Shown here one piece after another: positions 3,351 to 23,721 of a DNA stretch of 64,000 bases; within the stretch, counting starts at the first letter, position 1; each line of letters begins with the position of its first letter. The stretch is from assembly GCA_022616435.1 (NCBI GenBank), contig JAKEET010000045.1, positions 18,013 through 82,012 of the forward strand. The letters run 5' to 3'. Source of the stretch: Gemmataceae bacterium. Its GTDB lineage: Bacteria; Planctomycetota; Planctomycetia; Gemmatales; Gemmataceae. The position numbers were made by a program, and so were the translations under genes. The notes under the pieces were generated by a model. The model was not told the DNA's origin. It saw only the letters and a list, made by a program, of their open reading frames with translations, and searched no databases.

Positions 3351-4103
3351 TCAAATGGTGATCACCGTCCCCTGCCGCATCGGCGGCAGCGGCGCCTTGG
3401 CCAGGTCGAGCGTGTCCGGATAATGCGTGATGCGCAGCTTCTTGCGAATCGACGGCCGCACCGTCAACAAGTCGTCAAGATTGGTGTGCATGAACGCCGA
3501 GTTGGCCTCGTGGACGATCAGGTGGGCGTCGGCCAGCCAGTCGATGAGCGTCGGGTCGAACATGGTGTCGGCGCTGTAGCCCAGGCAGCGCTTGGCCGCC
3601 GTGCAACGCAACGCGATCGTCGGCACGCTGTGGATCGTCTTGCGGCACGCGATGCGAAATGGCCCGGCCTTGGTTTCCTCGCCCTCCGGCAACAAGCGCA
3701 GGTCGAAGAAATCATCCAGCGCGCGCTGCCGCGGCAAGGCGCCTGGCTTCTCGATCACCCATTCCATCGACCCTGACAGCACGCCGTTCCACAGCGAGTT
3801 GGCGACGTCGATGTGCGTGTACACGACCAGCGACCGCCCCAGGATGTAGCGGAAGTAATAACCGAGGCACTCCAGGCCGGAGACATGATCGCCGTGCAGA
3901 TGCGTGAGCACGATGGCGTCGATCTTGGAAACGTCGAACGCGACGCCGGCGGCCTGCGCCCCTTCGCGGACGATCTTGCGGATCGGATGCGGGCAATCCA
4001 CCATGAGCCAATGCCCGCCGCTTTCCAGCGCGAAGCACGAGGAGTAGTAGAGGGCCGAAAAGGCGTCGCCCGTGCCCAGACACAACAGTCGCAGATCGCT
4101 CAT
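3351..4103 (-). CDS. MBL-fold metallo-hydrolase (β-lactamase superfamily)
   Basis: MSDLRLLCLGTGDAFSALYYSSCFALESGGHWLMVDCPHPIRK...VLTHLHGDHVSGLE carries the HxHxDH motif. The ATG is the complement of 4101-4103 and overlaps the stop of the upstream cytochrome by 4 nt (ATGA coupling). The longer 469-aa ORF has a non-protein-like Arg/Pro-rich N-extension. Confidence 0.75.
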   Translation of the reverse strand: MSDLRLLCLGTGDAFSALYYSSCFALESGGHWLMVDCPHPIRKIVREGAQAAGVAFDVSKIDAIVLTHLHGDHVSGLECLGYYFRYILGRSLVVYTHIDVANSLWNGVLSGSMEWVIEKPGALPRQRALDDFFDLRLLPEGEETKAGPFRIACRKTIHSVPTIALRCTAAKRCLGYSADTMFDPTLIDWLADAHLIVHEANSAFMHTNLDDLLTVRPSIRKKLRITHYPDTLDLAKAPLPPMRQGTVITI

Positions 4104-5569
4104 GGGCTCCCCTTCAGAAATCGTTGCACATCGGGCAAGGGTCCATGCGGCGGCTGCCGAAGCGCGGCGCCGCGGCCGTGCAGCGGTTGGTCGCCGCCGT
4201 GGTAGCGGTGGCACTCGACGCAATCGTGCCGGGCGCCGCCCGCGACGCGGCCGCCGGCTGCGTGCGGCGGCGCGTGACATGTCCGGCAGAGTTTCACGCC
4301 GGGCAACAGCACATCGGCGGGGCCGCGCGATTGTTCCACATCCACATGGCACACGGCGCAGGCCACGCCGCGATGCGCGGTGTGGTCGAAGCGGGCGTGC
4401 TGGAACCAGACCGTCGGGATGTTCGCTGGGTCGATTCGCTGCGTCGCGCCGGTCTCGGTCAGCAGCGACGTGTGGCAGCGGCCGCAGGCGCCCTGGCCGA
4501 ACAGGATCGCTTCGGCGCCGCGGACATTCTCCTGAAGAATATCGGCGAGCTTCCGCGCATGCGCCTCCCGCTCGGGATTCTTGCCGGGCAACGGTCGCAG
4601 CGGCTGCTGGAGGAGCGACGCTCGATCCTTGATGAGGCGGTCGGTGAAGTAGCCGCGCAGCCAGGCGCGAACTTCGTCGGGCTGCAACCGGTGAGGGACG
4701 CTGGGTCGATCGAATCCCTTCGCCTCCTTGGCGAAATCCAGCGGATGGCACGCCTGGCAATGGCGGTCATAATGGATCGGGAGCATGTAATCCCCGGCGG
4801 CGCGGACGCGCTCGGGGGAAGCGCCGTCGGCGCGATGGCACGAAGCGCAATCGAGCTTGACGGGGTCCTTGTCGGCTTGCCCCGCCACGCGATAGCGCTC
4901 GCGGTGCTCGGGCGCGATGTCGGCGAGAACAAACGGCACACTCGTGTTCGCTTGCTCGCGAAGTCCGGCCGCGAGATGCAACTTGTGATTGAAGGCGATG
5001 CGGCCGGGGTCCTTGCCGTGCTCGCGGAGCACGCGGAACTCCGGATGGCGCTCGCCGAGGAAGCTGTCGACGTTCAGGAACGTCGTGGCGGCGCCGTCCT
5101 GGACATGGGCGGTGAGATTGCCGTGGCAGCGTGTGCACTGCTCGTTGGCGACGCGCCGCAAACCGGCGCTCCGGCCGCGATGCTCGCGATGACAGGTCGT
5201 GCAGCCGGCCACTTCCGCCGGCTTTTCGTTGTCGTGGTGGCGCGGTCCGGCATGGCAGGTTTGGCACTGCGCGTCGGCAGCGTGACTGGCGCCCAGGAGC
5301 GTGCCCGCCCAGTTCTGTCCGCTCAACGGTTGCGCGTTCGTGTGGCATGTGTCGCAGCGGTGTTCCCAGGTCGCGTGGACGTGGGCCAACGGGCCGGGCA
5401 GGTAGCGTGCGTCGCCGTGCCTGAACCATCCCCACAGCCAGAACAACGCCACCGCCGTCACCGCCGCGACGGGCAGCCACATCTGGGCCCGCGCGATCCG
5501 GTCGCGGCGACGATACCGCTCCGGCGGCACGTCGGCGAGGTTGTCCAGGATGGCGGCGTCGTGAGGCAT
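4100..5569 (-). CDS. membrane-anchored decaheme cytochrome c
   Basis: Ten CxxCH motifs (CDTCH, CQTCH, CTTCH, CTRCH, CASCH, CQACH, CGRCH, CAVCH, CRTCH, CVECH). There is an N-terminal TM helix (WLPVAAVTAVALFWLWGWF). Confidence 0.85.
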   Translation of the reverse strand: MPHDAAILDNLADVPPERYRRRDRIARAQMWLPVAAVTAVALFWLWGWFRHGDARYLPGPLAHVHATWEHRCDTCHTNAQPLSGQNWAGTLLGASHAADAQCQTCHAGPRHHDNEKPAEVAGCTTCHREHRGRSAGLRRVANEQCTRCHGNLTAHVQDGAATTFLNVDSFLGERHPEFRVLREHGKDPGRIAFNHKLHLAAGLREQANTSVPFVLADIAPEHRERYRVAGQADKDPVKLDCASCHRADGASPERVRAAGDYMLPIHYDRHCQACHPLDFAKEAKGFDRPSVPHRLQPDEVRAWLRGYFTDRLIKDRASLLQQPLRPLPGKNPEREAHARKLADILQENVRGAEAILFGQGACGRCHTSLLTETGATQRIDPANIPTVWFQHARFDHTAHRGVACAVCHVDVEQSRGPADVLLPGVKLCRTCHAPPHAAGGRVAGGARHDCVECHRYHGGDQPLHGRGAALRQPPHGPLPDVQRFLKGSP

Positions 5570-5587
5570 GTTCGGATGTCGATTCTA

Positions 5588-5626
5588 TCAGAGGCTATCC
5601 GAAAAGGGGTCAGACCCCTCAAAATC
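5588..5626. repeat. REP-like palindrome family A (…GAGGCTATCCGAAAAGGGGTCAGACCCCT…). Related copies occur at 26993-27032 and 57243-57292
   Basis: Hairpin-forming sequence immediately 3' of the stop of the 5619..6503 gene. The same core is seen at two other loci, in both orientations. Confidence 0.6.
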
Positions 5627-6503
5627 CCCCGTACCACATACTCAGCGCGACGTGTTCGATCATCAACACGAGAAGGGCCCAGGCCGCCGGACCGTGCACG
5701 AGCAGCCAGAGCCGGCCGAGCTGGTGCAAGCGATACTCCAGGTCCATCGAACGCCGCAGCTCGACGAGCCCCCACAGGTCATCGAGGATCGGTTGCTGCT
5801 TGGCGTCGGCATAGCTGCGCGTGCGCTGATACCAGTTTTCCGACAAAGCTTCCGGCTCCGCCTGGGGATGCCACACCCAGCTCCAGAAGGTCAGCGGCCG
5901 CGCCAGGCAACCCTGCACGGCCGCCCCGCAGAAGCCGCGGATCACGTCAGGGCTCTCGGCCAGTTCTTTCTTGCGAACCAGTTCTTCCGCCGCTTGCAGC
6001 ATGAAGACGCGCTGCGGCTCCAGACGCTCCAGGCCGAATTCCCGGGCCACCATGCGCGGCAGGAAGGAGTAGAGCAACTTCTGGCCGTAGAAACCGACGA
6101 CGCCGGAGATCATGACGATCCAGGTCAGCCACACCAGGGCCAGCGTCAGGGGGCTGTTGGCCCGGCCGCGGCTGTGGACGATGACCAACAAGAACGCCAG
6201 GTACGCCGCGGCGATGTGCCAGCGCAGCCAGGCGGTCATCGGTGGGCCCTGTCGATAGCGGAAGCAGCGCCTGAGGATGTGCAGGTACGGGACCAGCATG
6301 GCGACGAACGCCCCGTAGCCGGCGAGCCGCGCCGCCGCGCGCAGCCCAAACGACTCCCATTCCGGCCCCAAGGCCACGAGAATCCAGAGCAGCACGAGCG
6401 CCGCGAAGAGGCCGATCGAGCCCGGCTGCAAGATGTCCCAGGTGAGGGATCGTTTTCCAGTGGTGCGCATGCCAGCATCCAACACGGCGTCATGTCGCCG
6501 CAC
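5619..6503 (-). CDS. polytopic integral membrane protein (≥5 TM helices, conserved His in helices; possibly a b-type cytochrome/quinol-interacting subunit)
   Basis: Hydrophobic helices (IGLFAALVLLWILVALG; YGAFVAMLVPYLHIL; WHIAAAYLAFLLVIVHS; LALVWLTWIVMISGVVGFY; LWLLVHGPAAWALLVLMIEHVAL). It sits between the cNMP/Fe-S gene and the decaheme cytochrome on the same strand. Confidence 0.55.
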   Translation of the reverse strand: MRRHDAVLDAGMRTTGKRSLTWDILQPGSIGLFAALVLLWILVALGPEWESFGLRAAARLAGYGAFVAMLVPYLHILRRCFRYRQGPPMTAWLRWHIAAAYLAFLLVIVHSRGRANSPLTLALVWLTWIVMISGVVGFYGQKLLYSFLPRMVAREFGLERLEPQRVFMLQAAEELVRKKELAESPDVIRGFCGAAVQGCLARPLTFWSWVWHPQAEPEALSENWYQRTRSYADAKQQPILDDLWGLVELRRSMDLEYRLHQLGRLWLLVHGPAAWALLVLMIEHVALSMWYGGF

Positions 6504-6518
6504 TCCAAGTCGTCCCGC

Positions 6519-8747
6519 TTACTGCCGCCCCGCGAAGTTGGCCCAGCTCTTCAACTGCGGGAAATACTCGACCGGATCGACGCGCTGGGCGGCATCGTAC
6601 GGGCAGCAGGCCACGCAGGGCGGATCGTAGTCGTCGGTCAGGCACAGATCGCACTTGTTGGCCACGATCCCCGGCCGCGAGCTGGGCGCGTCCAGGGGCG
6701 ATGTCGGCTGGTACATGTCGATGACGTCGAAGGGGCATTCGCGGGCGCATTGCTGACAGCCGATGCACCGATCGCGATGGATCTGCACCGCCTGGTTTTC
6801 GAGCCAGGTGATGGCGCCCACGGGACAGACCTGCTGGCACGGCGCGTCGAGGCAGTGCAGGCAGGCGCCGGCGACTTCCCAGTGGCCGAACCGCCATTTC
6901 GGATTGGCGCGATGGAAGCGCGGCTGGCCGTCGTGGGCCTCCGCGCAGCCGCGCACGCACTGGTCGCAGCGCGTACACTTGTCCATGTCGATCAAGAGCA
7001 GGTTGCGCGTCAGCATCAGCTTGTCGGCCAGGGCTTGCGGCGGCTCTTGCGGCGGCAGCAGACGGCCGGCGCGCATGTGCTCGTCGCGCACCGACAGGAG
7101 CCGGCGTTCGCGCTGCAGCTTGGCGCCGAGAGCCTGGTACGGTCCGGCGAACAGCGACCGCAGCACGTCGCGATCGAGCCGCAGCAGCGTGGTGCTGCAC
7201 AGCGTCTCCACGGCGGCGGAGCGGACCGGCATCGCGTCGCCTTCCTCCAGGACCGCGGATTCGCCGAAGTACGCGTCGGCCTCCAGGTTGTTCACCATGG
7301 ATTGCCCGCCCGGCAGGTCGAGACTGACCCGGACCATGCCGCTCAGGAGCAGGAACAAGCAATCGGCAGGGTCGCCTTGCTTGAACACGGCCACGCCTTT
7401 CTTGTCGCTCTTCCTGTCCTTCTGTTCCAGGCGGTCGGGTTGCAGAGGCTTGCCGAACTTCTGGTGATACGCCGCCGCGAAGGCTTCCGTGAAGCCGCGA
7501 AATTCCTCGCCGGTCAACGGGAACGGCCGCGGGCTGCTCGCCACGACGCCGGGCCAAGCCGCCTCCAGCAACAAGCGATTGAGCCGGAAGACCTCACAAT
7601 CGTTGAGCGTGTCGCGCCGCTGCAACGCTTGCCGGGACTCGTCGTCGAGCGCCGACGTGGCCCGCTCGTCCGCCGCGGCCAGCAAACGCCTCCGGGTCAG
7701 CGCTCCATTGAGATGTTCGACAATGTGTGTCTTCTCCGCGAAGTCCAGGCGCTCGGCGGGTTCCTTGAGCAGCCACGGCAACGCTTTGACAAGCCGCTTG
7801 CCCAGCCGGGCCGGCCAGCCGGCGCCCGGGTCGCGCAGCGCGGCCAGCAGCCGCGGCCAGTCCAGGACGTCTTCCACGAACACGCGATCGCGAAACAAGC
7901 GGTTCCTGGCCAGCACGCTCGGCAGCGTGCTTCGCACGAACTCCGCCAGCTCGCGCTCGTAAAAGCGCGGGCTCTTCTTGATGATCTCTTCGAGGGCCTT
8001 GCGCTTGATCAGCAGCATCACGCACGGCTTGCCGCCGTCGTCCGGATCGTCGTCCGCGACCAGCGTCGCCGAGCGCGGCTGATTCCAGAGCGTGCCGGTG
8101 ATGCCCATGAAACGATCTTCGAGCGGCTTGATGTTGTTGGCCGCGTCGCGGATGGTGATGGCGGCCCGGGGGGTCGCGGCGGCTTGACCGGCGGCGGCGA
8201 CAAAGGCGCTGCTCGGGTTGGACAGCTCGCGTTCCAGGCGGTGGACCGGCGGCATGCGTCCGTGGAGGGCGCGGGCGACGTGGTTGCGAACGCGCTGGGC
8301 GGCGGCCGCCGGCAACCAATGCTCGGCGGCATCGATCAGCTTCAGCGGAAGGCCGGGGAGCCGGCGGTACAGCGGCGCCAGCCAGCCGAACCAGCCGCGT
8401 CCCGGCGGCGCGTCCTTGGGCCAGGTCGCGGCCTGGCGGAGCACGGCGTTTTCCAGCCGCCGCGCCAGCGGCTTCTCCCAGCAGCCGCGGCCGACCGGCG
8501 CCGCCGGCGGCGCGATGTCGCGGACGCCGACCCGCCCCTGGATGTGCACGGCGGCATAGTCGCTCGTGGTCCCCTTGGCCATGATGACTTCGCCGGCCGT
8601 GTACTGGATCAGGAAGAAGTGGATGCCGCGCTTGGCTTCGCCTTCCTCGTAGAACGACTTGAGAGTGGCGAGCGCCTTGGCGTCGAGACCGGGAATGCCC
8701 TGCAAGTGTTCCTGAATGGTTTGCCAATCCGCCGGGAGTTGTTGCAT
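6519..8747 (-). CDS. fusion protein with two cyclic-nucleotide-binding (cNMP/CAP-type) domains and a C-terminal 4Fe-4S ferredoxin region
   Basis: The N-terminal region (FFLIQYTAGEVIMAKGTTSDYAAVHIQGRVGV) and a second region (VAVFKQGDPADCLFLLLSGMVRVSL...AYFGESAVLE) look like cNMP-binding β-barrels. The C-terminus carries Cys clusters CTRCDQCVRGC, CLHCLDAPCQQVCP, CIGCQQCARECP and CDLCLTDDYDPPCVACCP. The antisense 1149-aa ORF 5568..9017 is rejected. Confidence 0.7.
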   Translation of the reverse strand: MQQLPADWQTIQEHLQGIPGLDAKALATLKSFYEEGEAKRGIHFFLIQYTAGEVIMAKGTTSDYAAVHIQGRVGVRDIAPPAAPVGRGCWEKPLARRLENAVLRQAATWPKDAPPGRGWFGWLAPLYRRLPGLPLKLIDAAEHWLPAAAAQRVRNHVARALHGRMPPVHRLERELSNPSSAFVAAAGQAAATPRAAITIRDAANNIKPLEDRFMGITGTLWNQPRSATLVADDDPDDGGKPCVMLLIKRKALEEIIKKSPRFYERELAEFVRSTLPSVLARNRLFRDRVFVEDVLDWPRLLAALRDPGAGWPARLGKRLVKALPWLLKEPAERLDFAEKTHIVEHLNGALTRRRLLAAADERATSALDDESRQALQRRDTLNDCEVFRLNRLLLEAAWPGVVASSPRPFPLTGEEFRGFTEAFAAAYHQKFGKPLQPDRLEQKDRKSDKKGVAVFKQGDPADCLFLLLSGMVRVSLDLPGGQSMVNNLEADAYFGESAVLEEGDAMPVRSAAVETLCSTTLLRLDRDVLRSLFAGPYQALGAKLQRERRLLSVRDEHMRAGRLLPPQEPPQALADKLMLTRNLLLIDMDKCTRCDQCVRGCAEAHDGQPRFHRANPKWRFGHWEVAGACLHCLDAPCQQVCPVGAITWLENQAVQIHRDRCIGCQQCARECPFDVIDMYQPTSPLDAPSSRPGIVANKCDLCLTDDYDPPCVACCPYDAAQRVDPVEYFPQLKSWANFAGRQ

Positions 8748-8977
8748 GACCGCTACCGCCGCCGCGCCAAGCGATTGGTGAGAGTCGCGGGGTTATCTTG
8801 GCGCGCCGGGGCCGGACAGGCAAGGATGAAAACGACCTCTCCGCGTCGCCAAGATGCGCAAGCAATGCGCGTCGCGCCGGTCAGTCACGACGAAACGCCA
8901 CGGTGGAACATGCCGGATGCTCATTCCTGCTTGACAGGCTCCGATCTGTCGAGTCATCTTAACTCACGGGGCGAGCG

Positions 8978-9052
8978 TCGCGGCGTGAGCGCGACGTGGT
9001 GTTCGAGCAGTTACTAACCCGCACACACGTCGGGCTCACGCCGCGACGCTCG
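8978..9052. repeat. REP-like palindrome family B (GGCGAGCGTCGCGGCGTGAGC … GGGCTCACGCCGCGACGCTCGCC). Related copies occur at 12537-12631 and ~47690-47760
   Basis: Inverted repeat with 21-bp arms and ~40-nt loop in the divergent intergenic region. It overlaps the 5' end of the longest ORF for the next cytochrome, which argues for a later start. Confidence 0.6.
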
Positions 9053-9070
9053 CCGTTGCTTGAGGTGAAC

Positions 9071-10495: not shown

Positions 10496-10503
10496 GGGGC
10501 GCC

Positions 10504-12072: not shown

Positions 12073-12075
12073 GTG

Positions 12076-12426: not shown

Positions 12427-12536
12427 CGCGATCTCCTGCGTGGAACTCGCGCCGCCGGCGAGCGGCGCGGCGTAAGCCCGACGTGTCAGCATCTCACGAC
12501 GCGCCGGCATCCCACAATCCACGACCGCGTCGCGTC

Positions 12537-12631
12537 CACGGCGGGCTTACGCCGCGCCGCTCGCCTCTTCACGGCGGGCTTACGCCGCGCCGCTCGCCTC
12601 TTCACGGCGGGCTTACGCCGCGCCGCTCGCC
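12537..12631. repeat. tandem direct repeat, 3 x 33 bp (CACGGCGGGCTTACGCCGCGCCGCTCGCCTCTT), REP family B-related. It is not a CRISPR array because the units are adjacent with no spacers
   Basis: The units are identical and adjacent. They are located 3' of the stop of 12640..14559 on the minus strand. The ORF 12483..12692 (HGGLTPRRSPL x3) is a translation artefact of this repeat. Confidence 0.8.
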
Positions 12632-12639
12632 AAGCAGCG

Positions 12640-14559: not shown

Positions 14560-14576
14560 CAAGTCACTCCTCTTCC

Positions 14577-15818: not shown

Positions 15819-16180
15819 GACCGTCGTTCTACGATGGCGAGTTTGGGCAAAGGGTTCCCGACCTGCGGGTTGTATCGGCAGGCGGAAACCGATGCCTGAA
15901 GATGATCGCATTGCGTTCGAAATGCGTTGCGCGATGACGACACACGAGGCGCAACGCATTTTTCCGTGGTATGACACAACCTATTGCTGAGAACCATCTT
16001 AATTCGTCGCGCCGCGAAGTGAGCGCGGCGCGACGCATTTCTCGAGGCGCCTGGACTCCCGGTGCGACGTTATCCAGATTGCCCAGATTGTGAGATCGGC
16101 ACATTCGGGAGATTCGTCAAGGAATCCTTCGGCGGGCGACGATACCTGGAGAGGACGGGAAGTCTTGTCACAGGGCAGCG

Positions 16181-18217: not shown

Positions 18218-21200
18218 TGGAGATCGTCGTGAACGGGAATGGATTCCATCACCGGGAATTGCCGCGCCGCCTCGGCGCGTTCGCCGCCCTCGCCGTCGTC
18301 GTCGCCGCCACGGTGTTCGCGTGCCACCGGCGGCCGGACTGGTTCGCACAGAGTCACGGTCAAGAACCCGGCGCTACGTACGGCGAGGTCAACCTGCTAT
18401 TCCAATCCAAGGAGCAAGCCTTCCGCAAGAGCGTCGGCTGCATCCAGTGCCACGAAGGCGCCCACGATCCGCACTACAAGGAAACGCTGAACCTGGGCTG
18501 CTGCGATTGCCACGGCGGCGATCCCACAACGACGGTCAAGGAATACGCCCACGTGGCGCCGCGCTTCCGCGATGCGTGGAAAAACTCCGGCAACCCCGTC
18601 CGCTCGTACACGCTGCTCAATCACGAAGCGCCCGAGTTCATCCGCTTCGTCAACCCCGGCGACTTGCGCGTCGCCCACATCAGTTGCGGCACGGCCGGCT
18701 GCCACGGCGCCGAGGTGATGCAGAACAAGATGAGCATGATGACCCACGGCTGCATGCTCTGGGGCGCCGCCCTCTACAACAACGGCGCCTTTCCGCTGAA
18801 GCAGGCCCGCTACGGCGAGAGCTACAGCATCAACGGCGTGCCGCAGCGCCTGCAAACCTGGCCGCCGCCCACCGCGGAAGAGATCACCAAGAAAGGCGTC
18901 GTCCCCTATCTCGATCCCCTGCCCCGCTTCGAGATGTCGCAGCCCGGCAACATCCTCCGCTTCTTCGAGCGCGGCGGCCGCTTCTTCCCCGAGATCGGCA
19001 TCCCCGAACGCCTCGAGGAATCCGGCAAGCCGCGCACCCGCCTCAGCATTCGCGGCCTGGGGACCCTCAACCGCACCGACCCGACTTTCGTCGGCCTGCA
19101 GCGCACCCGGCTGCTCGATCCGACGCTCAACTTCCTCGGGACCAACGATCACGCCGGCGACTATCGCTCCAGCGGCTGCACCGCCTGTCACATGGTCTAC
19201 GCGAATGATCGCTCGCCGATCCACTCCGGGCCGTACGCGAAGTACGGCCACCGCGGCACGTCGGCGAGCACCGATCCGACGATTCCCAGGGACGAGCCGG
19301 GCCATCCGATCGAGCACCGGTTCACCCGCGCCATCCCGACGAGCCAGTGCATCGTCTGCCACGTCCACCCCGGCACCAGCGTCATGAACAGCTACCTCGG
19401 CTACATGTGGTGGGACGAGGAAACCGACGGCCATCTCATGTATCCGAAGAAGCAGAAGTACCCCACGGCCGAGGAGTTCGTGCAGGCGGCGCTCAACAAC
19501 CCCGACGAGGCGTCGGCCCGTGGGCTGTGGTCCGACCCGGCGTTTCTCGAACGTGTGTCGGAGCTGAACCCGCACCTGAGGCACACGCAGTTCGCGGATT
19601 TCAACGGCCACGGCTGGGTGTTCCGCGCCGTGTTCAAGAAGGACCGCCGCGGGAACTTCCTCGATCACCAGGGCAAGATCATTCCGCACGTGTCAACCCA
19701 GCACTTGATGACGGCCATGAAGGTCCCGGAATTCGCGAAGGAGAAGTACCGCCAGCCGGAAACCCCCTCACCCCCAGCCCCTCTCCCCCGCGGCGGTGGC
19801 GGGGGGCGCAACGAGGTCGTCTCCGGCCGGGCCACTCCCGTCAACCGCGACGGCATCCCGGTCCACCTGATGGACATCCATCTGGAGCGCGGCATGCACT
19901 GCGTCGATTGCCATTTCGTGCAGGACGTTCACGGCAACGGCAAGCTGTACCAGGAAGTGCGGGCCGCCATCGAAATCCAGTGCGTCGATTGCCACGGCAC
20001 GATCACGAAGTATGGCGCGTTGCGCACCAGCGGGCCGGCCGCGGAAAAGGGTCCTGACACCTTTTTCGGGCGCGACCTGACGGCGCTGCGGACGCCGTTC
20101 GGCAAACGCCGCTTCGAGCAGCGCGGCGCCAGGATCATCCAGAATTCGATGGTCGAGAAGGACCTGAGCTGGGAAGTCCCGCAAGTGAAGGACGTGATCA
20201 CGCCCGGTCATCCGCGGTACAACCAGCTCGGCCATCTTGCCAAGACCGTGCGCTTCGAGTCGCAGGACAAGAACCACTTCGCCTGGGGAAGTGTGCCCGG
20301 CGGCGACGAGTGCAAGGTCGCCCACGCCAACCAGCGGATGAGCTGCATCGCCTGCCACTCGGCGTGGAACCCGAGCTGCTTCGGCTGCCATCTGCCGCAG
20401 CGGGCCAACAAGAAGATGCCCGGCCTGCACAACGAAGGCGAGGTGACCCGCAACTACGTCGCCTACAACTTCCAGACCCTGCGCGACGACGTCTTCATGC
20501 TGGCCAGGGACGGCGACGTCACCGGCAACCGCATCGGCCCGGCCCGGTCCTCGTGCGCCATCCACGTCGGCTCGTACACCGGCAACCGCGACTCCATCTA
20601 CGTCCAGCAGCAGACCATCTCAGCCGACGGCCTCAGCGGCATCGCCTTCAGCACCAACGTCCCGCACACCGTCCGCGGCGGGCCGGCGCGCGGCAAGGAC
20701 GGCCGCTATCTCCACCCGGAGGCGTACATCGGCGGCCGCGGCGAGACCAAGCAGTGCAGCGATTGCCACGTTTCGAAGAACGAGGACAACAACGCCATCA
20801 TGGCCCAGCTCCTGATGCACGGCACCGGTTACGTGAATTTCATGGGCCGCTATTGCTGGGTGGCGGCCAAGGACCACGGACTTTTCGGCGTCGCCGTCAC
20901 CGAGCTGGACGAGCCGCAGGCGGTGATCGGCAGCTATCTCCATCGCCTGGCGTTCCCGGACTTCTTCAAGAAGCATCACGACCGCGGCTACAAGCTCGAC
21001 AAGGCCCACGAGCACCCCGGCATCGACATCGGCGACAAGTTGCGGCGCCCGCTCAAGAAGGCCAACGTGCTGCAGGTGCAGCCGCGCGGCGAGTTCTTGG
21101 TCGCGGCGTGCGGCGAGTTCGGGGTGCGGGTGTTCGACATCGCCTTCATCGACAACAAGTCGTTCTCGGAGCGGATCTTGACGGCCCCGGTGTCGCCGCT

Positions 21201-22212
21201 GGGCCAGCAATTCTACGTGAAGACGGCGTTCGCCGCCGCGGTGGCGGCGCCCTGCACGCCCGCCCCCGATCCGACGCGCAACCAGAACCCGAAGAACAAG
21301 GAGCCGCAAGTTCATCCGCTCTTCGGATACCTGTACGTGGCCGACCTGCACGAAGGCTTGATCCTGATCGGCGCCGGCACGACCATCGACGGCAACCCGA
21401 CGAACAACTTCCTGCGCCGCGAGGTGACCTTCAACCCCGACGGCCTGCTCAACGGCGCTCGCAACGTGACCATCGTGGGCAACTACGCCTACGTGTGCTG
21501 CGACGCAGGCCTGGTGGTCGTCAGCATCGACAATCCGAAGAACCCGTACGTCACCGGCGTCGTCGGCGCGCCGTTCATCCGGGGCGCGCGGGCCGTGCAG
21601 GCCCAGTTCCGCTACGCCTTCGTGTGCGACGGCGAAGGGGTGAAGGTGCTCGACATCACCGATCCGGCCAGGCCGGCGCCGGTCAGCGCCGTGCGGATTG
21701 CCGATGCCCGGAACATCTACCTGGCGCGCACCTATGCGTACGTCGCGGCCGGGCATCAAGGGTTGGTGATCCTCGACATCACGAAGCCGACGCGGCCGGC
21801 GCTCGACCAGGTGTACAACGCCGGCGGGCATCTGAATGACGTGAACGACGTGAAGCTCGGCATCACCTACGTCAGCGAGTTCGCGTACATCGCCGACGGC
21901 CACAACGGCCTGCGGGTGGTGCAGCTCACGTCGCCGGAGACGCCGGGCAACCAGGGCTTCAGTCCGCGGCCGACGCCGCACCTGGTCGCGACCTTCCCGA
22001 TCCCCGAAGGCGGGCACGCGCTGTCCGTGGGACGGGCGCTGGATCGCGACCGCGCCGTCGATGAAAGCGGCAATGCCATTGGGGTGTTCGGCCGGATCGG
22101 GGCGCGGGCCCTCAATTTCGACGAGCAGCGGAAAATGTACCTCCGCAACGGAAGCGTGTGGCGGGTAAGCGACGATCCGGCGGATGGGATGTATCGCCAT
22201 CAACAGAAATGA
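18217..22212 (+). CDS. giant multiheme cytochrome c (~10 hemes) with C-terminal LVIVD-repeat β-propeller domain
   Basis: N-terminal TM/signal (LGAFAALAVVVAATVFA). Heme motifs CIQCH, CCDCH, CTACH, CIVCH, CVDCH x2, CIACH, CFGCH and CSDCH, plus a CGTAGCH (CX4CH) site. The C-terminus has repeated YAYVCCDAGLVVVSIDNPKNP / YAFVCDGEGVKVLDITDPARP / YAYVAAGHQGLVILDITKPTRP / FAYIADGHNGLRVVQLTSPETP blocks typical of LVIVD repeats. The upstream 1850-aa track ORF beginning at 16660 is an out-of-frame extension and is rejected. Confidence 0.8.
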   Translation: MEIVVNGNGFHHRELPRRLGAFAALAVVVAATVFACHRRPDWFAQSHGQEPGATYGEVNLLFQSKEQAFRKSVGCIQCHEGAHDPHYKETLNLGCCDCHGGDPTTTVKEYAHVAPRFRDAWKNSGNPVRSYTLLNHEAPEFIRFVNPGDLRVAHISCGTAGCHGAEVMQNKMSMMTHGCMLWGAALYNNGAFPLKQARYGESYSINGVPQRLQTWPPPTAEEITKKGVVPYLDPLPRFEMSQPGNILRFFERGGRFFPEIGIPERLEESGKPRTRLSIRGLGTLNRTDPTFVGLQRTRLLDPTLNFLGTNDHAGDYRSSGCTACHMVYANDRSPIHSGPYAKYGHRGTSASTDPTIPRDEPGHPIEHRFTRAIPTSQCIVCHVHPGTSVMNSYLGYMWWDEETDGHLMYPKKQKYPTAEEFVQAALNNPDEASARGLWSDPAFLERVSELNPHLRHTQFADFNGHGWVFRAVFKKDRRGNFLDHQGKIIPHVSTQHLMTAMKVPEFAKEKYRQPETPSPPAPLPRGGGGGRNEVVSGRATPVNRDGIPVHLMDIHLERGMHCVDCHFVQDVHGNGKLYQEVRAAIEIQCVDCHGTITKYGALRTSGPAAEKGPDTFFGRDLTALRTPFGKRRFEQRGARIIQNSMVEKDLSWEVPQVKDVITPGHPRYNQLGHLAKTVRFESQDKNHFAWGSVPGGDECKVAHANQRMSCIACHSAWNPSCFGCHLPQRANKKMPGLHNEGEVTRNYVAYNFQTLRDDVFMLARDGDVTGNRIGPARSSCAIHVGSYTGNRDSIYVQQQTISADGLSGIAFSTNVPHTVRGGPARGKDGRYLHPEAYIGGRGETKQCSDCHVSKNEDNNAIMAQLLMHGTGYVNFMGRYCWVAAKDHGLFGVAVTELDEPQAVIGSYLHRLAFPDFFKKHHDRGYKLDKAHEHPGIDIGDKLRRPLKKANVLQVQPRGEFLVAACGEFGVRVFDIAFIDNKSFSERILTAPVSPLGQQFYVKTAFAAAVAAPCTPAPDPTRNQNPKNKEPQVHPLFGYLYVADLHEGLILIGAGTTIDGNPTNNFLRREVTFNPDGLLNGARNVTIVGNYAYVCCDAGLVVVSIDNPKNPYVTGVVGAPFIRGARAVQAQFRYAFVCDGEGVKVLDITDPARPAPVSAVRIADARNIYLARTYAYVAAGHQGLVILDITKPTRPALDQVYNAGGHLNDVNDVKLGITYVSEFAYIADGHNGLRVVQLTSPETPGNQGFSPRPTPHLVATFPIPEGGHALSVGRALDRDRAVDESGNAIGVFGRIGARALNFDEQRKMYLRNGSVWRVSDDPADGMYRHQQK

Positions 22213-22247
22213 TGAGACGTTTTAGGCCGGGTTGATGACGTTTAGCC

Positions 22248-22337
22248 CCGGCTCGAAGAACCGGGGCGGACAAGATCCCGCGCGTGGGATTCAGCCATTG
22301 CCAGCCGCCTGTCCGCCCCGGTTCTTCGAACCGGGGC
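22248..22337. repeat. REP-like palindrome family C (GTTTAGCCCCGG[C/T]TCG[A/C]AGAACCGGGGCGGAC arms, ~34 bp), between convergent cytochrome genes. A related tandem array is at 37199-37290
   Basis: A near-perfect inverted repeat is read directly in the sequence. It acts as a likely bidirectional terminator. Confidence 0.65.
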
Positions 22338-22341
22338 TAAA

Positions 22342-23721
22342 CTATTCGCGCAGGCGGCGAACGATCGAGCGCGGGTCCACATCGCCGCGCGGCGTGGCGT
22401 ACCCGGGCGGCAGGGCGCGCACATCCAGCAACGACTTCAAACGCTCGCCAAGGGCCGTATCCTTCGCCGTCTGGTTCAGCGCGACGAATGCCAGGTAAAG
22501 CTGCTCCGCCTCATCCCAGCTCGTGACGTTGTCCGACATCAGCAGGCCCTGGATTTTCCCAAGCGCGAACGGGCCGCCCCCATCCCAAGCGTTCACCGGG
22601 GCGTGCAACCGCCGCAACTCGACGAGGGCGGCGTCGATCTTCTCCACCGCCACATCCCGCGCCGGCCGCGGCTTCGCCATGATCCGCTTCAGCTCATCGA
22701 GCGCCGGCGTCCCTGTCGCGCCGGCAGCGCCGGCAAGCCAGCGCGGCATCGAGAAGTACCACGTCCCCCACGCCAGCGCGCCCCGGCGACCGAGTGGTCG
22801 CCGCCAGGTTGGCTCCTGCAAATCGTGGTGGCAGGCGGTGCAATCGTATTCCGCGAACTCCGGCCACACCGCAGTCGTGCGGTGCTTCAACAACTCAAGC
22901 GCGGCCGCCGCGCTCACGACCTGGCCGGCCGCCCACAGCTGGTTCTCGTTGCGCGGCCTGGGCTTCCAGTGCGGCGGCAGATTGGCGACGAACGCGCTGG
23001 CCTCGAAGGCCAGCCGTGGATGGCCGGCGGCGATCAGGTCGTGATTGACGTCGCGCACCGGCGCCCCGTTGCCAGGAGGCGCGCCGACGTGACAGCCGGC
23101 GCAAGCCTTCACGAGCGCCGCGGGGTCGCCGAGCGGAACCAGGCCGTGCTCGCGGAATTTTTCCTCGGCCGATTTCGTCTGCCATTCCTTCGTTAGATGC
23201 GCGTCGAGCCAGCGCGGCGCCGTGCCGTGACAGGCTTCGCAGCCGACGCCGGCGGCGCGTTCACGGCGGATCGAGGCGGCGTCCACCGAATCCTGGATCG
23301 GTCCGGACGCGGCCGGTTGCGTGTGGCAGCTCAGACATGCCGCGGCTTCGTGGGCCCCGCGCGGCAAGCCGAGCCGCCTGGCGATCTCCTGGGCGAGCGG
23401 CTCATGCAGCGTCCGGTAGGCGCGGGTGTGCGGATCGTGCTGGACCCACAACGTGTATTCCATCTGCCAGGAAGTCGCGCGCTCGATGGCGTCGAGGCTG
23501 CCGTGACAGGATCGGCCGGCGCACGATGCGGTCCCGGCGAAGGGACTTGACGATGTCGCCGGCGTGAGCCGCGGCGGCGCACCATCGTCCGCCTTCGGCG
23601 CCGCCACGGGCGGCCGGCGCCACCAGACGACGCCCACGATCACAAGGACCATGGCGCCGACGACCACGAGGCCGCGTGATGTCAACATGAGGACTCCGAC
23701 GTCGTTTCGCCAGGCTGGCAT
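22342..23721 (-). CDS. pentaheme cytochrome c, paralog 3 (TM/signal anchored). An alternative start is at M12 (23688)
   Basis: CAGRSCH, CLSCH, CEACH, CAGCH and CTACHH motifs. It shares the AAGHPRL and DCTACHHDL blocks with the two + strand paralogs. The sense-strand ORFs here are Arg/Ala junk. Confidence 0.8.
   Translation of the reverse strand: MPAWRNDVGVLMLTSRGLVVVGAMVLVIVGVVWWRRPPVAAPKADDGAPPRLTPATSSSPFAGTASCAGRSCHGSLDAIERATSWQMEYTLWVQHDPHTRAYRTLHEPLAQEIARRLGLPRGAHEAAACLSCHTQPAASGPIQDSVDAASIRRERAAGVGCEACHGTAPRWLDAHLTKEWQTKSAEEKFREHGLVPLGDPAALVKACAGCHVGAPPGNGAPVRDVNHDLIAAGHPRLAFEASAFVANLPPHWKPRPRNENQLWAAGQVVSAAAALELLKHRTTAVWPEFAEYDCTACHHDLQEPTWRRPLGRRGALAWGTWYFSMPRWLAGAAGATGTPALDELKRIMAKPRPARDVAVEKIDAALVELRRLHAPVNAWDGGGPFALGKIQGLLMSDNVTSWDEAEQLYLAFVALNQTAKDTALGERLKSLLDVRALPPGYATPRGDVDPRSIVRRLRE

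What the first reader, a model, noticed from the sequence alone, without database searches (positions are those of the whole stretch)
3351..23721. Multiheme cytochrome island: five multiheme cytochromes c (one decaheme, one ~10-heme giant, three paralogous pentahemes) with OM barrels and heme-binding GlcG-domain proteins
Twenty kilobases contain 10+10+5+5+5 predicted c-type hemes. They occur with two BBP7-like OM barrels, a porin-like barrel and a double GlcG/HbpS (heme-binding) protein. The three pentahemes share conserved blocks (AAGHP.L, DC[FY/T]ACHHDL) and so arose by duplication. The density suggests a dedicated respiratory or extracellular redox pathway rather than scattered housekeeping cytochromes.
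Basis: partly seen in the sequence, partly recalled or inferred. Interest (0 to 1): 0.6.

Follow-up and report, generated by a model that had tools for sequence, protein, structure and literature searches.

The report
Conserved planctomycete multiheme cytochrome gene cluster
A 22-kb stretch of a Gemmataceae genome encodes 35 c-type heme sites in five cytochromes, plus an outer-membrane channel, a membrane b-type cytochrome candidate and a cyclic-nucleotide-binding iron-sulfur protein; the gene set recurs across the phylum Planctomycetota, no source names it and I found no study of it, so it looks like an uncharacterised electron-transfer chain through the cell envelope.

Summary
The core observation holds. 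Five multiheme cytochromes c carry 10+10+5+5+5 heme sites (32 CxxCH + 3 Cx4CH; about 0.009 expected by chance). The three pentahemes are paralogs. Corrections: there is one BBP7 barrel, not two. The 'porin-like' protein is an 18-stranded AlgE-like barrel. Heme binding by the double GlcG/HbpS protein is untested. The range starts in a metallo-beta-lactamase-fold phosphodiesterase gene. A GAF-cyclase lies at the other end. The locus is not an NrfA, HAO or Mtr locus. The pentahemes have a cytochrome c554-like core and no CxxCK. The 1331-aa decaheme/LVIVD-propeller protein has no solved relative and no assigned function. It occurs at 53-76% identity in at least 596 species genomes of Planctomycetota, usually just downstream of the barrel gene and near GlcG2, the pentaheme pair and the inner-membrane module. 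Best reading: a cyclic-nucleotide-controlled electron relay from cytoplasm to an outer-membrane channel/cytochrome terminal module. Substrate and direction are unknown. I rate it a new variant of a known kind.

The parts
3351..4103 (-). 250-aa MBL-fold hydrolase, Apyc1-like, candidate cyclic-nucleotide phosphodiesterase. Its start overlaps the decaheme stop by 4 nt.
   Evidence: Pfam PF23023 Anti-Pycsar_Apyc1 at 59.4 bits (cutoff 50), plus Lactamase_B_2. Weak NCBIfam match to cyc_nuc_deg_phdiest. A different MBL/PDEase_II-like gene family recurs in 6 related loci. The window protein itself has no blastp ortholog in the 80 loci.
4100..5569 (-). 489-aa decaheme cytochrome c with one N-terminal transmembrane anchor (aa 31-50). 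The heme domain is inferred to face the periplasm.
   Evidence: 10 CxxCH, all invariant in 15 homologs, plus 11 further invariant His. Pfam Cytochrome_C7 and c3 modules. Hydropathy. No close solved relative.
5619..6503 (-). 294-aa integral membrane protein, candidate di-heme b-type cytochrome.
   Evidence: Four to five hydrophobic helices. His96/His110 and His270/His284 (two H-x13-H pairs) are invariant in the homologs aligned (5, 13, 7). Only faint Pfam hints (Ni_hydr_CYTB 14.6 bits, DUF4405). No solved sequence relative.
6519..8747 (-). 742-aa cytoplasmic protein. It has a cyclic-nucleotide-binding domain (aa 449-534, FGE...RSA cassette) followed by a HydN/AegA-N-like module with sixteen Cys, enough for four [4Fe-4S] clusters.
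   Evidence: Pfam cNMP_binding at 73 bits and several Fer4 families. NCBIfam AegA/HydN/DsrO-type matches, all below cutoff. 16 Cys invariant in 9 homologs and the cassette Arg conserved. No signal peptide or TM segment.
8996..10495 (+). Pentaheme cytochrome c, A-type (first site CAAQACH = Cx4CH, then 4 CxxCH). The start codon is uncertain (GTG at 8996 or 9065).
   Evidence: Pfam Cytochrome_C554 at 34.6 bits (cutoff 20.8). Groups with A-type orthologs.
10504..12072 (+). Pentaheme cytochrome c, B-type (5 CxxCH), starting 8 nt after pentaheme A.
   Evidence: Pfam Cytochrome_C554 at 31 bits. The B-type subfamily is usually next to the giant gene in other genomes. Most orthologs have SPI-type signal peptides.
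12640..14580 (-). 646-aa protein made of two diverged GlcG/HbpS/EfgA-like (DUF336) domains with large insertions. It has an N-terminal RR...LExLExR motif.
   Evidence: Pfam HbpS-like at 60.4 bits with 4 stretches. The halves align at E 0.004. Solved relatives are EfgA and the PduO C-terminal domain. 44-58% identical orthologs lie beside the barrel/giant pair in 26 loci. The N-terminal motif is present in 19 of 27 sequences (the window protein and 26 orthologs).
14577..15977 (-). BBP7-family outer-membrane beta-barrel, directly upstream of GlcG2 in the same orientation. The likely start is Met54 at about 15818.
   Evidence: Pfam BBP7 at 283 bits, E 4.7e-84. C-terminal ...FEFRY. The same BBP7-GlcG2 pair is seen in L001 and in a JGI contig but not in other orders.
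16181..18217 (+). 678-aa outer-membrane protein: signal peptide, Pro/Ala/Glu-rich linker, a conserved segment of about 75 aa, then an 18-stranded AlgE-like beta-barrel ending ...LILTY.
   Evidence: No Pfam or NCBIfam hit. AlphaFold2 pLDDT 77 with 18 long strands. Foldseek best hits are AlgE at E 1e-14 and target-normalised TM 0.63-0.70, then MOMP, chitoporin and OprD/Occ. About 7,500 homologs; the 120 listed are 59-80% identical and all unnamed. Directly upstream of the giant gene in 41 of 80 loci.
18217..22212 (+). 1331-aa secreted decaheme cytochrome c (heme domain about aa 60-950) fused to a C-terminal LVIVD beta-propeller. Its ATG overlaps the barrel's TGA.
   Evidence: 9 CxxCH plus CGTAGCH. 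Pfam LVIVD at 76 bits. All 10 sites and at least 9 further His are invariant even in 41-58% identical relatives. SPI-type signal peptides and no lipobox. No solved sequence relative for the heme domain. ExtM NCBIfam scores 72.8 bits against a cutoff of 800. TGATG overlap.
22342..23721 (-). Pentaheme cytochrome c, second A-type copy (CAGRSCH + 4 CxxCH), with an N-terminal hydrophobic anchor.
   Evidence: 39% identical to pentaheme A. About 2,000 homologs named only 'cytochrome c family' or 'c554 and c-prime'. A profile of the family matches cytochrome c554 (1BVB) at E 5e-11.
23759..25585 (+). GAF-domain class III adenylate/guanylate cyclase, divergent from pentaheme C. The start is uncertain; the ORF opens at 23564.
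   Evidence: Pfam Guanylate_cyc at 68 bits and GAF at 32 bits. A GAF-cyclase family recurs in 16-17 of 80 related loci.
25602..26813 (-). 403-aa putative outer-membrane beta-barrel. Its membership of the cluster is doubtful.
   Evidence: Signal peptide and C-terminal ...QFNLRY. No Pfam hit. No similarity to BBP7. Homologs in only 2 related loci.

Best explanation
The region encodes a multi-tier electron-transfer chain across the planctomycete cell envelope. The chain is conserved as a gene neighbourhood across the phylum.

Inner-membrane module (operon 8747 to 3351, minus strand):
- A cytoplasmic Fe-S protein with sixteen Cys, whose cNMP-binding domain makes it cyclic-nucleotide responsive, exchanges electrons with a di-heme b-type membrane protein.
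- That protein passes electrons across the membrane to the membrane-anchored periplasmic decaheme.
- A cyclase at one end of the region and an MBL-fold phosphodiesterase at the other end would set the cyclic-nucleotide level.

Periplasmic relay: soluble c554-like pentahemes (the A/B pair plus an extra A copy).

Terminal module:
- The secreted 1331-aa decaheme/LVIVD-propeller protein, made from the same transcript as an 18-stranded AlgE-like outer-membrane channel and probably docked to it.
- The exported double-GlcG protein, here paired with a BBP7 barrel, as an accessory.
- I think the redox substrate most likely reaches the giant cytochrome through or at the channel, as a soluble or polymer-bound acceptor or donor. 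I think it less likely that the cytochrome threads the barrel as MtrA does.

Shown: the gene content, the heme, His and Cys inventories, the barrel fold, the topology signals and the conserved synteny.
Inferred: every cofactor, the protein contacts, the direction of flow (outward seems likelier because the inner end is a cytoplasmic ferredoxin-like protein) and the substrate, which is unknown.
For: - Cofactor inventory: 35 invariant heme sites with enough invariant His for mostly bis-His ligation. Sixteen invariant Cys in the Fe-S protein and a canonical cNMP cassette. Two invariant H-x13-H pairs in transmembrane helices of the membrane protein.
- Topology: the Fe-S protein has no export signal. 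The decaheme has one N-terminal anchor. The pentahemes and the giant have Sec/SPI-type signal peptides. The barrel has a signal peptide and a terminal aromatic residue.
- Tight operon structure: gaps of 15 and 49 nt and a 4-nt overlap in the inner-membrane operon, a TGATG overlap for barrel/giant, and an 8-nt gap between pentahemes A and B.
- Synteny in 80 related loci from four orders: barrel-giant adjacency in 41, GlcG2 in 26, pentahemes in 31, decaheme in 14, the membrane protein family in 13, the Fe-S protein in 12 and GAF-cyclase in 16-17.
- Barrel fold: 18 strands, AlgE/OprD/chitoporin-like, all substrate channels.
- The giant and the barrel are each 53-80% identical across orders and similarly abundant, as expected for obligate partners.
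Against: - No experiment and no characterised homolog bears on any component.
- The AlphaFold2 model of the giant's heme domain failed (pLDDT 47), so its fold, heme arrangement and any open coordination site are unknown.
- Linkage is not obligatory. In several genomes (L014, L042, L072 Gemmata algarum, L081) the giant gene stands alone within 10 kb. The inner-membrane module accompanies it in only about a quarter of well-flanked loci, so the two modules might serve different partners.
- The membrane protein matches no known cytochrome b family above threshold.
- The window's MBL gene has no ortholog in the related loci.
- An 18-strand barrel, a non-lipoprotein giant and about 95-130 aa per heme differ from proven porin-cytochrome conduits.
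Confidence: 0.5

Rival explanations
1. A true porin-cytochrome extracellular electron conduit of the Mtr/Pcc type. Part of the giant cytochrome would thread the barrel and its LVIVD propeller would sit on the cell surface. Electrons would go to insoluble Fe(III)/Mn(IV) oxides or humics, or be taken up from Fe(II).
For: - Barrel gene and large multiheme cytochrome gene are translationally coupled, as in mtrAB and ombB-omaB.
- There is a tiered set of periplasmic and inner-membrane cytochromes.
- LVIVD propellers are described as cell-surface domains (paper 10.1101/2022.05.06.490989, read).
- There are weak ExtM/ExtN/ExtS-type matches.
Against: - The barrel has 18 strands and resembles AlgE, against 26 strands in MtrB (the MtrB figure is from my own knowledge).
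- There is no Pfam hit of any kind for the barrel, so no MtrB_PioB match.
- The giant has an SPI-type signal peptide and no lipobox.
- It has only one heme per about 95-130 aa.
- It is far more conserved than the known surface cytochromes I am aware of.
- Its carriers include aerobic heterotrophic isolates (lifestyle from my own knowledge).
Confidence: 0.2
2. The two halves are functionally separate. The barrel, giant and GlcG2 (with BBP7) would be a self-contained unit of unknown function. The Fe-S protein, b-type membrane protein, decaheme and pentahemes would be a different respiratory module that merely tends to lie nearby.
For: - The giant occurs alone, or only with barrel and GlcG2, in many loci.
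- The decaheme is present in 7 of 25 well-flanked loci. In the stricter blastp count the Fe-S and membrane proteins appear in only 1 of 25 each, although the clustering finds their families in 12-13 loci.
- The order and orientation of the modules differ between genomes.
Against: - Pentahemes lie directly beside the giant in 15 of 25 well-flanked loci. In loci such as L025, L026, L040 and L060 the order is giant, pentaheme B, pentaheme A, membrane protein, decaheme, pentaheme, Fe-S protein, without interruption.
- Co-location recurs in Gemmatales, Isosphaerales, Pirellulales and Planctomycetales.
Confidence: 0.15
3. A reductive iron or heme acquisition or handling system. An outer-membrane channel and HbpS-like heme-binding or heme-degrading protein would take up heme or Fe(III) chelates. 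The cytochromes and a ferric-reductase-like di-heme b protein would supply reducing power.
For: - An HbpS-like domain is present.
- H-x13-H pairs also occur in ferric-reductase-type membrane domains (own knowledge).
- The barrel has a substrate-channel fold.
- Near-universal conservation in the phylum suggests a housekeeping need.
Against: - DUF336 relatives include non-heme binders such as EfgA, and no heme-ligand residue could be tested.
- No TonB, ABC importer, heme oxygenase or Fur-type gene was found among the recurrent neighbour families or in the window's flanks.
- 35 hemes is a heavy investment for iron uptake.
Confidence: 0.08
4. An ordinary nitrogen- or sulfur-cycle multiheme enzyme locus (NrfA/NrfB, ONR/OTR, HAO or MccA type).
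For: - A profile of the pentaheme family gives local matches to two NrfA structures (E 3.5e-7 and 0.0036), OcwA (6i5b) and NrfB.
- The heme density of about 100 aa per heme resembles enzymes.
Against: - There is no CxxCK and no CX15CH.
- No Pfam Cytochrom_C552 or Multi-haem_cyto hit was returned.
- NCBIfam NrfB scores 16 bits against a cutoff of 184.
- The matches cover only about 100 residues of shared heme-packing motifs, and c554 is the better match.
- Six extra invariant His are enough for bis-His ligation of all five hemes.
- The giant has no detectable similarity to any solved multiheme enzyme.
- The conserved Cys780 and Cys965 are lost in divergent relatives.
Confidence: 0.04

Closest known systems
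Porin-cytochrome conduits (Shewanella MtrCAB; Geobacter OmbB-OmaB-OmcB and the Ext clusters)
   Same: An outer-membrane beta-barrel gene is co-transcribed with a large multiheme cytochrome gene. Further periplasmic and inner-membrane-associated multiheme cytochromes lie in the same neighbourhood. The presumed role is moving electrons between the cytoplasmic membrane and the cell periphery.
   Different: - No sequence homology: the best match is ExtM NCBIfam at 72.8 bits against a cutoff of 800, and the barrel has no MtrB_PioB hit.
- The barrel is 18-stranded and AlgE-like rather than 20-26-stranded (strand numbers of the known porins from my own knowledge and PMC5877670).
- The partner cytochrome is a 1331-aa non-lipoprotein fused to a beta-propeller with sparse hemes.
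- The inner end is a cytoplasmic Fe-S protein plus a b-type membrane protein, not a NapC/CymA, ImcH or CbcL-type quinol dehydrogenase.
Cytochrome c554 (CycA) of Nitrosomonas europaea, PDB 1BVB/1FT5
   Same: The N-terminal core of the pentahemes is homologous. Pfam PF13435 scores above threshold in all three copies. The family profile matches c554 residues 12-139 at E 5e-11. The giant's first three hemes align weakly to the same module (hhalign probability 61%).
   Different: These proteins have five hemes, not four, and in the A-type the first site is Cx4CH. A helical C-terminal extension of about 160-200 aa carries the fifth site (DCxACHHDL). They are 459-522 aa long against 211 aa. There is no ammonia-oxidation gene context.
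Desulfovibrio transmembrane redox complexes (Tmc, Hmc) and the NarHI-type Fe-S plus di-heme b arrangement
   Same: Architecture only: a periplasmic multiheme cytochrome c, an integral membrane cytochrome b and a cytoplasmic Fe-S protein encoded together, able to pass electrons across the membrane (own knowledge of these complexes).
   Different: The families differ. The Fe-S protein is HydN/AegA-N-like with a cNMP-binding domain and has no CCG/HdrD domain. The membrane protein matches no known cytochrome b family. There is no NrfD-type subunit.
AlgE alginate-export barrel and the OprD/Occ and chitoporin substrate channels
   Same: 18-stranded monomeric barrel fold (Foldseek E about 1e-14, target-normalised TM 0.63-0.70).
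   Different: 12-14% sequence identity and no Alginate_exp Pfam hit. The protein has an extra conserved N-terminal segment and a long, highly conserved internal loop region. Its genomic partner is a cytochrome, not polysaccharide-synthesis genes.
GlcG/HbpS/EfgA/PduO-C (DUF336) proteins
   Same: Pfam PF03928 scores above threshold, and solved relatives include EfgA and the PduO C-terminal domain.
   Different: Two tandem, strongly diverged domains with large insertions make 646 aa, against about 130-165 aa. The protein has a planctomycete-type N-terminal RR...LExLExR motif and is linked to outer-membrane barrels and cytochromes. Its ligand is unknown.

Membership tests
NrfA pentaheme nitrite reductase | Active-site heme bound by CxxCK | tested here: not met
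   No CxxCK in any of the five cytochromes.
NrfA pentaheme nitrite reductase | Full-length match to the family model (Pfam PF02335 Cytochrom_C552) | tested here: not met
   The family was not returned by hmmscan at E <= 0.01. The profile search gives only matches of about 100 residues to two NrfA structures (E 3.5e-7 and 0.0036).
Cytochrome c554 family (PF13435) | Model match above the gathering score | tested here: met
   34.6, 31.0 and 40.2 bits against a cutoff of 20.8. The family profile matches 1BVB at E 5e-11.
Cytochrome c554 family (PF13435) | Tetraheme protein of about 210 aa | tested here: not met
   Five conserved sites in 459-522 aa, with a C-terminal extension.
Mtr/Pcc porin-cytochrome complex | Barrel gene adjacent to a multiheme cytochrome gene | tested here: met
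   TGATG overlap at 18215-18219. Adjacency in 41 of 80 related loci.
Mtr/Pcc porin-cytochrome complex | Large (20-26-strand) MtrB/PioB- or OmbB-type porin | tested here: not met
   The model has 18 strands and is AlgE-like, and the barrel has no Pfam hit at E <= 10.
Mtr/Pcc porin-cytochrome complex | Compact heme-dense periplasmic cytochrome inserted in the porin, plus a surface lipoprotein cytochrome | tested here: not met
   The giant has one heme per about 95-133 aa, an SPI-type signal peptide and no lipobox. A lipobox is seen in only 2 of 23 B-type pentahemes.
Geobacter extHIJKLMNOPQS proteins (NCBIfam ExtM/N/O/S) | Score above the equivalog cutoff | tested here: not met
   ExtM 72.8 bits against 800; ExtN and ExtO 23.1 against 200; ExtS 16.8 against 100.
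BBP7 outer-membrane barrel (PF07585) | Full-length model match | tested here: met
   283 bits, model positions 5-350 of 350, for 14577-15977 only. No second BBP7 lies in the range.
HbpS-like/GlcG (PF03928) | Model match above the gathering score | tested here: met
   60.4 bits against 25, with four stretches, and two homologous halves.
HbpS-like/GlcG (PF03928) | Heme binding or degradation | not testable with these tools
   The family includes non-heme binders such as EfgA, and no diagnostic ligand residue is known to me.
AlgE/alginate-export barrels | 18-stranded barrel fold | tested here: met
   AlphaFold2 pLDDT 77 with 18 long strands. Foldseek E 1.3e-14, target-normalised TM 0.63-0.70.
AlgE/alginate-export barrels | Sequence family membership (Pfam Alginate_exp) and a polysaccharide-export gene context | tested here: not met
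   No Pfam hit. The neighbours are cytochromes.
Di-heme membrane cytochrome b (e.g. PF01292 Ni_hydr_CYTB) | Model match above the gathering score | tested here: not met
   14.6 bits against a cutoff of 30.1. No PDB sequence match.
Di-heme membrane cytochrome b (e.g. PF01292 Ni_hydr_CYTB) | Four conserved His in transmembrane helices, spaced to bind two stacked hemes | tested here: met
   His96/110 and His270/284 are invariant in the homologs aligned. Heme binding itself is untested.
Pycsar-type cyclic-nucleotide defence system | PycC cyclase plus a cNMP-binding TM or TIR effector | tested here: not met
   Only domain-level PADLOC hits (PycC 55.8 bits to the cyclase domain, 27 bits to the cNMP domain). 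The cNMP-binding protein is an Fe-S protein in a cytochrome operon.

The most novel reading that the evidence does not exclude
The barrel, the giant decaheme-propeller protein and the double-GlcG protein form a previously unrecognised redox machine that is almost universal in the phylum. It would be either a new class of outer-membrane-channel-coupled multiheme oxidoreductase or a new design of extracellular electron conduit. It would give supposedly strictly aerobic, heterotrophic Planctomycetota an unsuspected redox capability, for example humic, metal or oxyanion reduction or oxidation. It would be wired to the cytoplasm through a new cyclic-nucleotide-gated Fe-S/di-heme-b transmembrane module.
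Probability: 0.35. Interest if true: 0.85.

Novelty: new variant of a known kind. Interest (0 to 1): 0.65.

Why it matters
Planctomycetota are abundant in soils, lakes, oceans and wastewater. Outside the anammox lineage they are generally treated as aerobic polymer degraders with conventional respiration.

This work finds a gene set with 35 hemes, an outer-membrane channel and a transmembrane Fe-S/b-type module. Its central 1331-aa protein is 53-76% identical across four orders and is found in at least 596 species genomes. Every source that names it calls it 'hypothetical protein'.

Such conservation implies an important function under strong selection that is missing from current metabolic models of the phylum. 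If the function is extracellular or periplasmic electron exchange with metals, humics or oxyanions, it would change how these organisms are placed in carbon, iron and manganese cycling.

Cultured carriers exist (Tundrisphaera sp. TA3, Gemmata algarum, Rhodopirellula maiorica), so the question can be tested directly. The cNMP-binding polyferredoxin, with a linked cyclase and phosphodiesterase, also suggests second-messenger control of an electron-transfer chain, for which I found no description.

Tried and rejected
- AlphaFold2 on the giant's heme domain (aa 56-960, 64-sequence alignment) gave pLDDT 47. No fold search was run on it and nothing is claimed about its fold.
- Sequence and profile searches of the PDB found nothing usable for the giant, the decaheme or the membrane protein.
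- The AFDB50 fold library was unavailable.
- A His/Cys-ligated catalytic heme involving the conserved Cys780 or Cys965 was considered. It was dropped because both Cys are replaced in divergent full-length relatives.
- A lipoprotein status for pentaheme B (LAAC lipobox in the window) was considered. The lipobox is present in only 2 of 23 B-type sequences.
- A shared upstream element CATCTTAAYTC plus a GC-rich hairpin occurs before both plus-strand operons. It is not conserved at the equivalent positions in the related loci, and the chance test is circular, so it is recorded only as a passing note.
- A search for further conserved neighbour families by all-against-all clustering of ORFs in 80 loci mostly returned shadow ORFs of these high-GC genomes. 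The real additions were a GAF-cyclase, an MBL/PDEase_II-like gene and DUF1501.
- A Pycsar defence reading of the cyclase, the cNMP-binding protein and the Apyc1-like hydrolase was rejected.
- Exact look-up of the window's own giant protein in the contig index failed.
- Cluster look-ups gave no names or accessions.
- Five literature searches found no description of this cluster or of an LVIVD-cytochrome fusion. The verrucomicrobial porin-cytochrome clusters described in bioRxiv 10.1101/150078 are a different system, with porins of at least 20 strands and 8-heme cytochromes.
- Labels such as 'Candidatus Kuenenia', 'Clostridia' or 'Chitinophaga' on some MAG loci were not trusted. Their GC content of 46-60% and lake origins suggest mis-binning or mis-naming, so presence in anammox bacteria is not claimed.

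Full report
GENE MAP

The window has about 66% GC, so many long ORFs are spurious. Third-position GC singles out the following genes between 3351 and 26813.

| Coordinates | Strand | Product |
|---|---|---|
| 3351-4103 | - | 250-aa MBL-fold hydrolase |
| 4100-5569 | - | 489-aa decaheme cytochrome c |
| 5619-6503 | - | 294-aa membrane protein |
| 6519-8747 | - | 742-aa cNMP-binding Fe-S protein |
| 8996-10495 | + | pentaheme A |
| 10504-12072 | + | pentaheme B |
| 12640-14580 | - | 646-aa double GlcG/HbpS protein |
| 14577-15977 | - | BBP7 barrel |
| 16181-18217 | + | 678-aa protein with no family hit |
| 18217-22212 | + | 1331-aa cytochrome with LVIVD repeats |
| 22342-23721 | - | pentaheme C |
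| about 23759-25585 | + | GAF-cyclase |
| 25602-26813 | - | 403-aa putative barrel |

Genes further right are unrelated to electron transfer: a Ser/Thr kinase, a Band 7 protein, DUF1501, PSCyt2/PSD1 and assorted metabolic enzymes. Genes to the left are an amidohydrolase-like ORF and a split secretin-N gene. The window's giant protein is 100% identical to an NCBI 'hypothetical protein' of a Gemmataceae MAG.

CHECK OF THE OBSERVATION

The heme count is right: 32 CxxCH plus 3 Cx4CH, or 35 sites in 3301 residues, against 0.009 CxxCH expected from local amino-acid composition. The Cx4CH sites are real heme sites. They are conserved in homologs. In divergent relatives of the giant the same column carries an ordinary CxxCH.

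The GlcG protein is a genuine tandem of two DUF336 domains.

- There is one BBP7 barrel in the range, not two. The other candidate barrel (25602-26813) is outside the range and is not BBP7-like.
- The range begins in a hydrolase gene.
- The Fe-S protein and the membrane protein were overlooked.

WHAT THE PARTS ARE

Decaheme. It has one N-terminal transmembrane helix. It carries 10 invariant CxxCH and 11 further invariant His, enough for bis-His ligation throughout.

Membrane protein. Its hydrophobic helices carry His96/His110 and His270/His284, two H-x13-H pairs that are invariant in every alignment of its homologs. This spacing is the one used by membrane di-heme b cytochromes (my own knowledge of cytochrome b of bc1, FdnI and ferric-reductase domains). 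No family model or solved structure matches it.

Fe-S protein. It has no export signal. It has a cNMP-binding domain with an FGE...RSA phosphate-binding cassette and 16 invariant Cys in a HydN/AegA-N-like module, enough for four [4Fe-4S] clusters.

These three genes and the MBL hydrolase form one tightly packed minus-strand operon, with gaps of 15 and 49 nt and a 4-nt overlap. The hydrolase passes Pfam's threshold for the Apyc1 family of cyclic-nucleotide-degrading enzymes.

Pentahemes. They contain a cytochrome c554-like core. PF13435 scores above threshold in all three, and a 49-sequence profile matches 1BVB at E 5e-11. NrfA, OcwA and NrfB follow, but only over about 100 residues of shared heme-packing motifs. 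There is no CxxCK. Six extra invariant His would allow bis-His ligation of all five hemes. A neighbour-joining tree of 58 sequences splits them into a B-type (five CxxCH) and an A-type (Cx4CH first). The window's A and C copies both fall in the A-type, so the A/B duplication is ancient and the C copy is a later extra. Most orthologs have ordinary Sec signal peptides.

The 678-aa protein. It has a signal peptide, a low-complexity linker and a terminal ...LILTY. AlphaFold2 (pLDDT 77, pTM 0.74) gives 18 long strands. Foldseek places it next to the alginate exporter AlgE (E about 1e-14, target-normalised TM 0.63-0.70). Campylobacter MOMP, chitoporins and OprD/Occ channels follow.

The giant. It has an SPI-type signal peptide and no lipobox. 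A heme domain of about 900 aa holds ten invariant sites and at least nine further invariant His. A C-terminal LVIVD propeller follows. Its first three hemes resemble the c554 module weakly. Nothing in the PDB matches the heme domain by sequence or profile. The only named family that responds is Geobacter ExtM, at 72.8 bits against a cutoff of 800. The structure prediction of this domain failed.

CONSERVATION ELSEWHERE

The giant has about 8,000 homologs in the 5.8-billion-protein collection. The best 120 are 66-100% identical over more than 95% of its length, and every source name among them is 'hypothetical protein'. The best 80 are 53-76% identical. They come from Gemmatales, Isosphaerales, Pirellulales and Planctomycetales, including the isolates Tundrisphaera sp. 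TA3, Gemmata algarum and Rhodopirellula maiorica.

Against 1.84 billion 50%-identity representatives the heme domain finds only 611 proteins at E below 1e-30. Most are fragments. The full-length ones are 41-58% identical and keep all ten heme sites. The family is therefore compact and unusually constrained. The barrel has about 7,500 homologs with no Pfam domain, and the 120 listed are 59-80% identical.

In the 80 loci the recurrent order is: GlcG2 (reverse strand), barrel, giant (both forward), pentaheme B and pentaheme A (both reverse). In a subset this is followed by the membrane protein, the decaheme, a third pentaheme and the Fe-S protein.

| Component | Loci with >6 kb on both sides (n = 25) |
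|---|---|
| Barrel | 17 |
| GlcG2 | 13 |
| Pentaheme | 15 |
| Decaheme | 7 |
| GAF-cyclase | 6 |

Clustering all ORFs of the loci adds a GAF-cyclase family (17 loci) and an MBL/PDEase_II-like family (6 loci). It finds the membrane protein family in 13 loci and the Fe-S protein in 12. An independently called JGI contig shows BBP7, an HbpS-like protein (646 aa), a 664-aa protein and the giant in the same arrangement. BBP7 itself appears beside the cluster only in Gemmataceae. In a few genomes the giant stands alone. The window is a rearranged version of the common layout, with all modules present.

HOW IT PROBABLY WORKS

The inventory and topology fit a relay with these steps:
1. A cytoplasmic Fe-S protein.
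2. A di-heme b membrane protein.
3. The anchored periplasmic decaheme.
4. Soluble c554-like pentahemes.
5. The giant decaheme, at an outer-membrane channel.

The double-GlcG protein carries an N-terminal RR...LExLExR motif, present in the window protein and 18 of its 26 orthologs (19 of 27 sequences). To my knowledge this motif is typical of exported planctomycete proteins. It would act as an accessory at the outer membrane.

The cNMP-binding domain sits inside the Fe-S protein, and a cyclase and a phosphodiesterase-like hydrolase are linked to it. This suggests that electron entry is controlled by a cyclic nucleotide.

I favour a terminal module in which the substrate reaches the giant cytochrome through or at the AlgE-like channel:
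- All structural neighbours of the barrel are substrate channels.
- The giant is not a lipoprotein.
- The giant has few hemes for its size.
- Both proteins are far more conserved than the surface cytochromes I am aware of.

A true Mtr-like conduit remains possible. Direction of flow and substrate are unknown. Every cofactor assignment is an inference from sequence.

COMPARISON WITH KNOWN SYSTEMS AND NOVELTY

The cluster works like a porin-cytochrome or Tmc/Hmc-type transmembrane redox system in outline. It fails the membership tests for Mtr/Pcc, the Geobacter Ext proteins, NrfA and known cytochrome b families (see the membership table). The only secure family assignments are c554-like (core only), BBP7, HbpS-like/DUF336, cNMP-binding, 4Fe-4S ferredoxin-like, LVIVD and class III cyclase.

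Five full-text searches found no paper describing this cluster or an LVIVD-cytochrome fusion. The verrucomicrobial porin-cytochrome clusters reported in bioRxiv 10.1101/150078 are a different system. The library does not cover subscription journals, so an existing description cannot be excluded.

I rate the finding as a new variant of a known kind: an envelope-spanning multiheme electron-transfer cluster built from uncharacterised, phylum-specific components.

Noticed in passing
window 12537-12631: A perfect 33-bp tandem repeat of 2.9 copies (CACGGCGGGCTTACGCCGCGCCGCTCGCCTCTT). It lies in the 567-bp gap between the convergent pentaheme B and GlcG2 genes, ending 8 nt from the GlcG2 stop.
   Followed up: no
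window 1554-3252 (minus strand): A gene with three Secretin_N domains is split into two overlapping ORFs in different frames (1939-3252 and 1554-2039). No C-terminal secretin barrel domain is visible, so it may be a frameshifted or truncated secretin. It has no counterpart next to the cluster in other genomes.
   Followed up: partly
window 8955-8989 and 15995-16039: Both plus-strand operons (pentaheme A/B and barrel/giant) are preceded by CATCTTAAYTC within 10 nt of a GC-rich inverted repeat (12 and 16 nt arms). These are the only two matches in the 64 kb. The motif was derived from these two sites, and it is not found at equivalent positions in the related loci.
   Followed up: partly
window 12640-14580, N-terminus; orthologs in L001-L077: The double-GlcG protein lacks a classical signal peptide. 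It starts with a basic stretch followed by [LIVMF]ExLExR (here SPLSVESLEDRAVPA). The motif is present in 19 of 27 sequences (the window protein and 26 orthologs) and in no other N-terminus in the window; the one other match lies inside the DUF1501 gene. It may be a planctomycete-specific export or sorting signal.
   Followed up: partly
window 3351-4103, 6519-8747, 23759-25585: Three cyclic-nucleotide functions lie in one locus: an Apyc1-like MBL hydrolase, a cNMP-binding domain inside an Fe-S protein, and a GAF-cyclase. PADLOC gives only domain-level Pycsar hits. GAF-cyclase and MBL/PDEase_II genes recur near the cluster elsewhere.
   Followed up: yes
window 25602-26813 (minus strand): A 403-aa protein with a signal peptide and a C-terminal ...QFNLRY, probably another outer-membrane barrel. 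It has no Pfam family and only 2 weak homologs in the related loci.
   Followed up: partly
P0385 (representative library): One 1648-aa relative of the giant carries 28 CxxCH motifs, so an additional multiheme domain appears to be fused to the conserved ten-heme core.
   Followed up: no
L012, L016, L063, L064, L078, L079, L010: Several loci that carry the giant gene come from MAGs labelled Candidatus Kuenenia, Clostridia or Chitinophaga. Their GC content is 46-60% and some are from lake samples, so the labels look unreliable.
   Followed up: partly
window 33154-34539 and 37360-39828; L008 8036-9442: DUF1501 and PSCyt2/PSD1 genes typical of Planctomycetota lie downstream in the window. A DUF1501 family also recurs in 8 related loci, which is probably only a reflection of how common these genes are in the phylum.
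   Followed up: no
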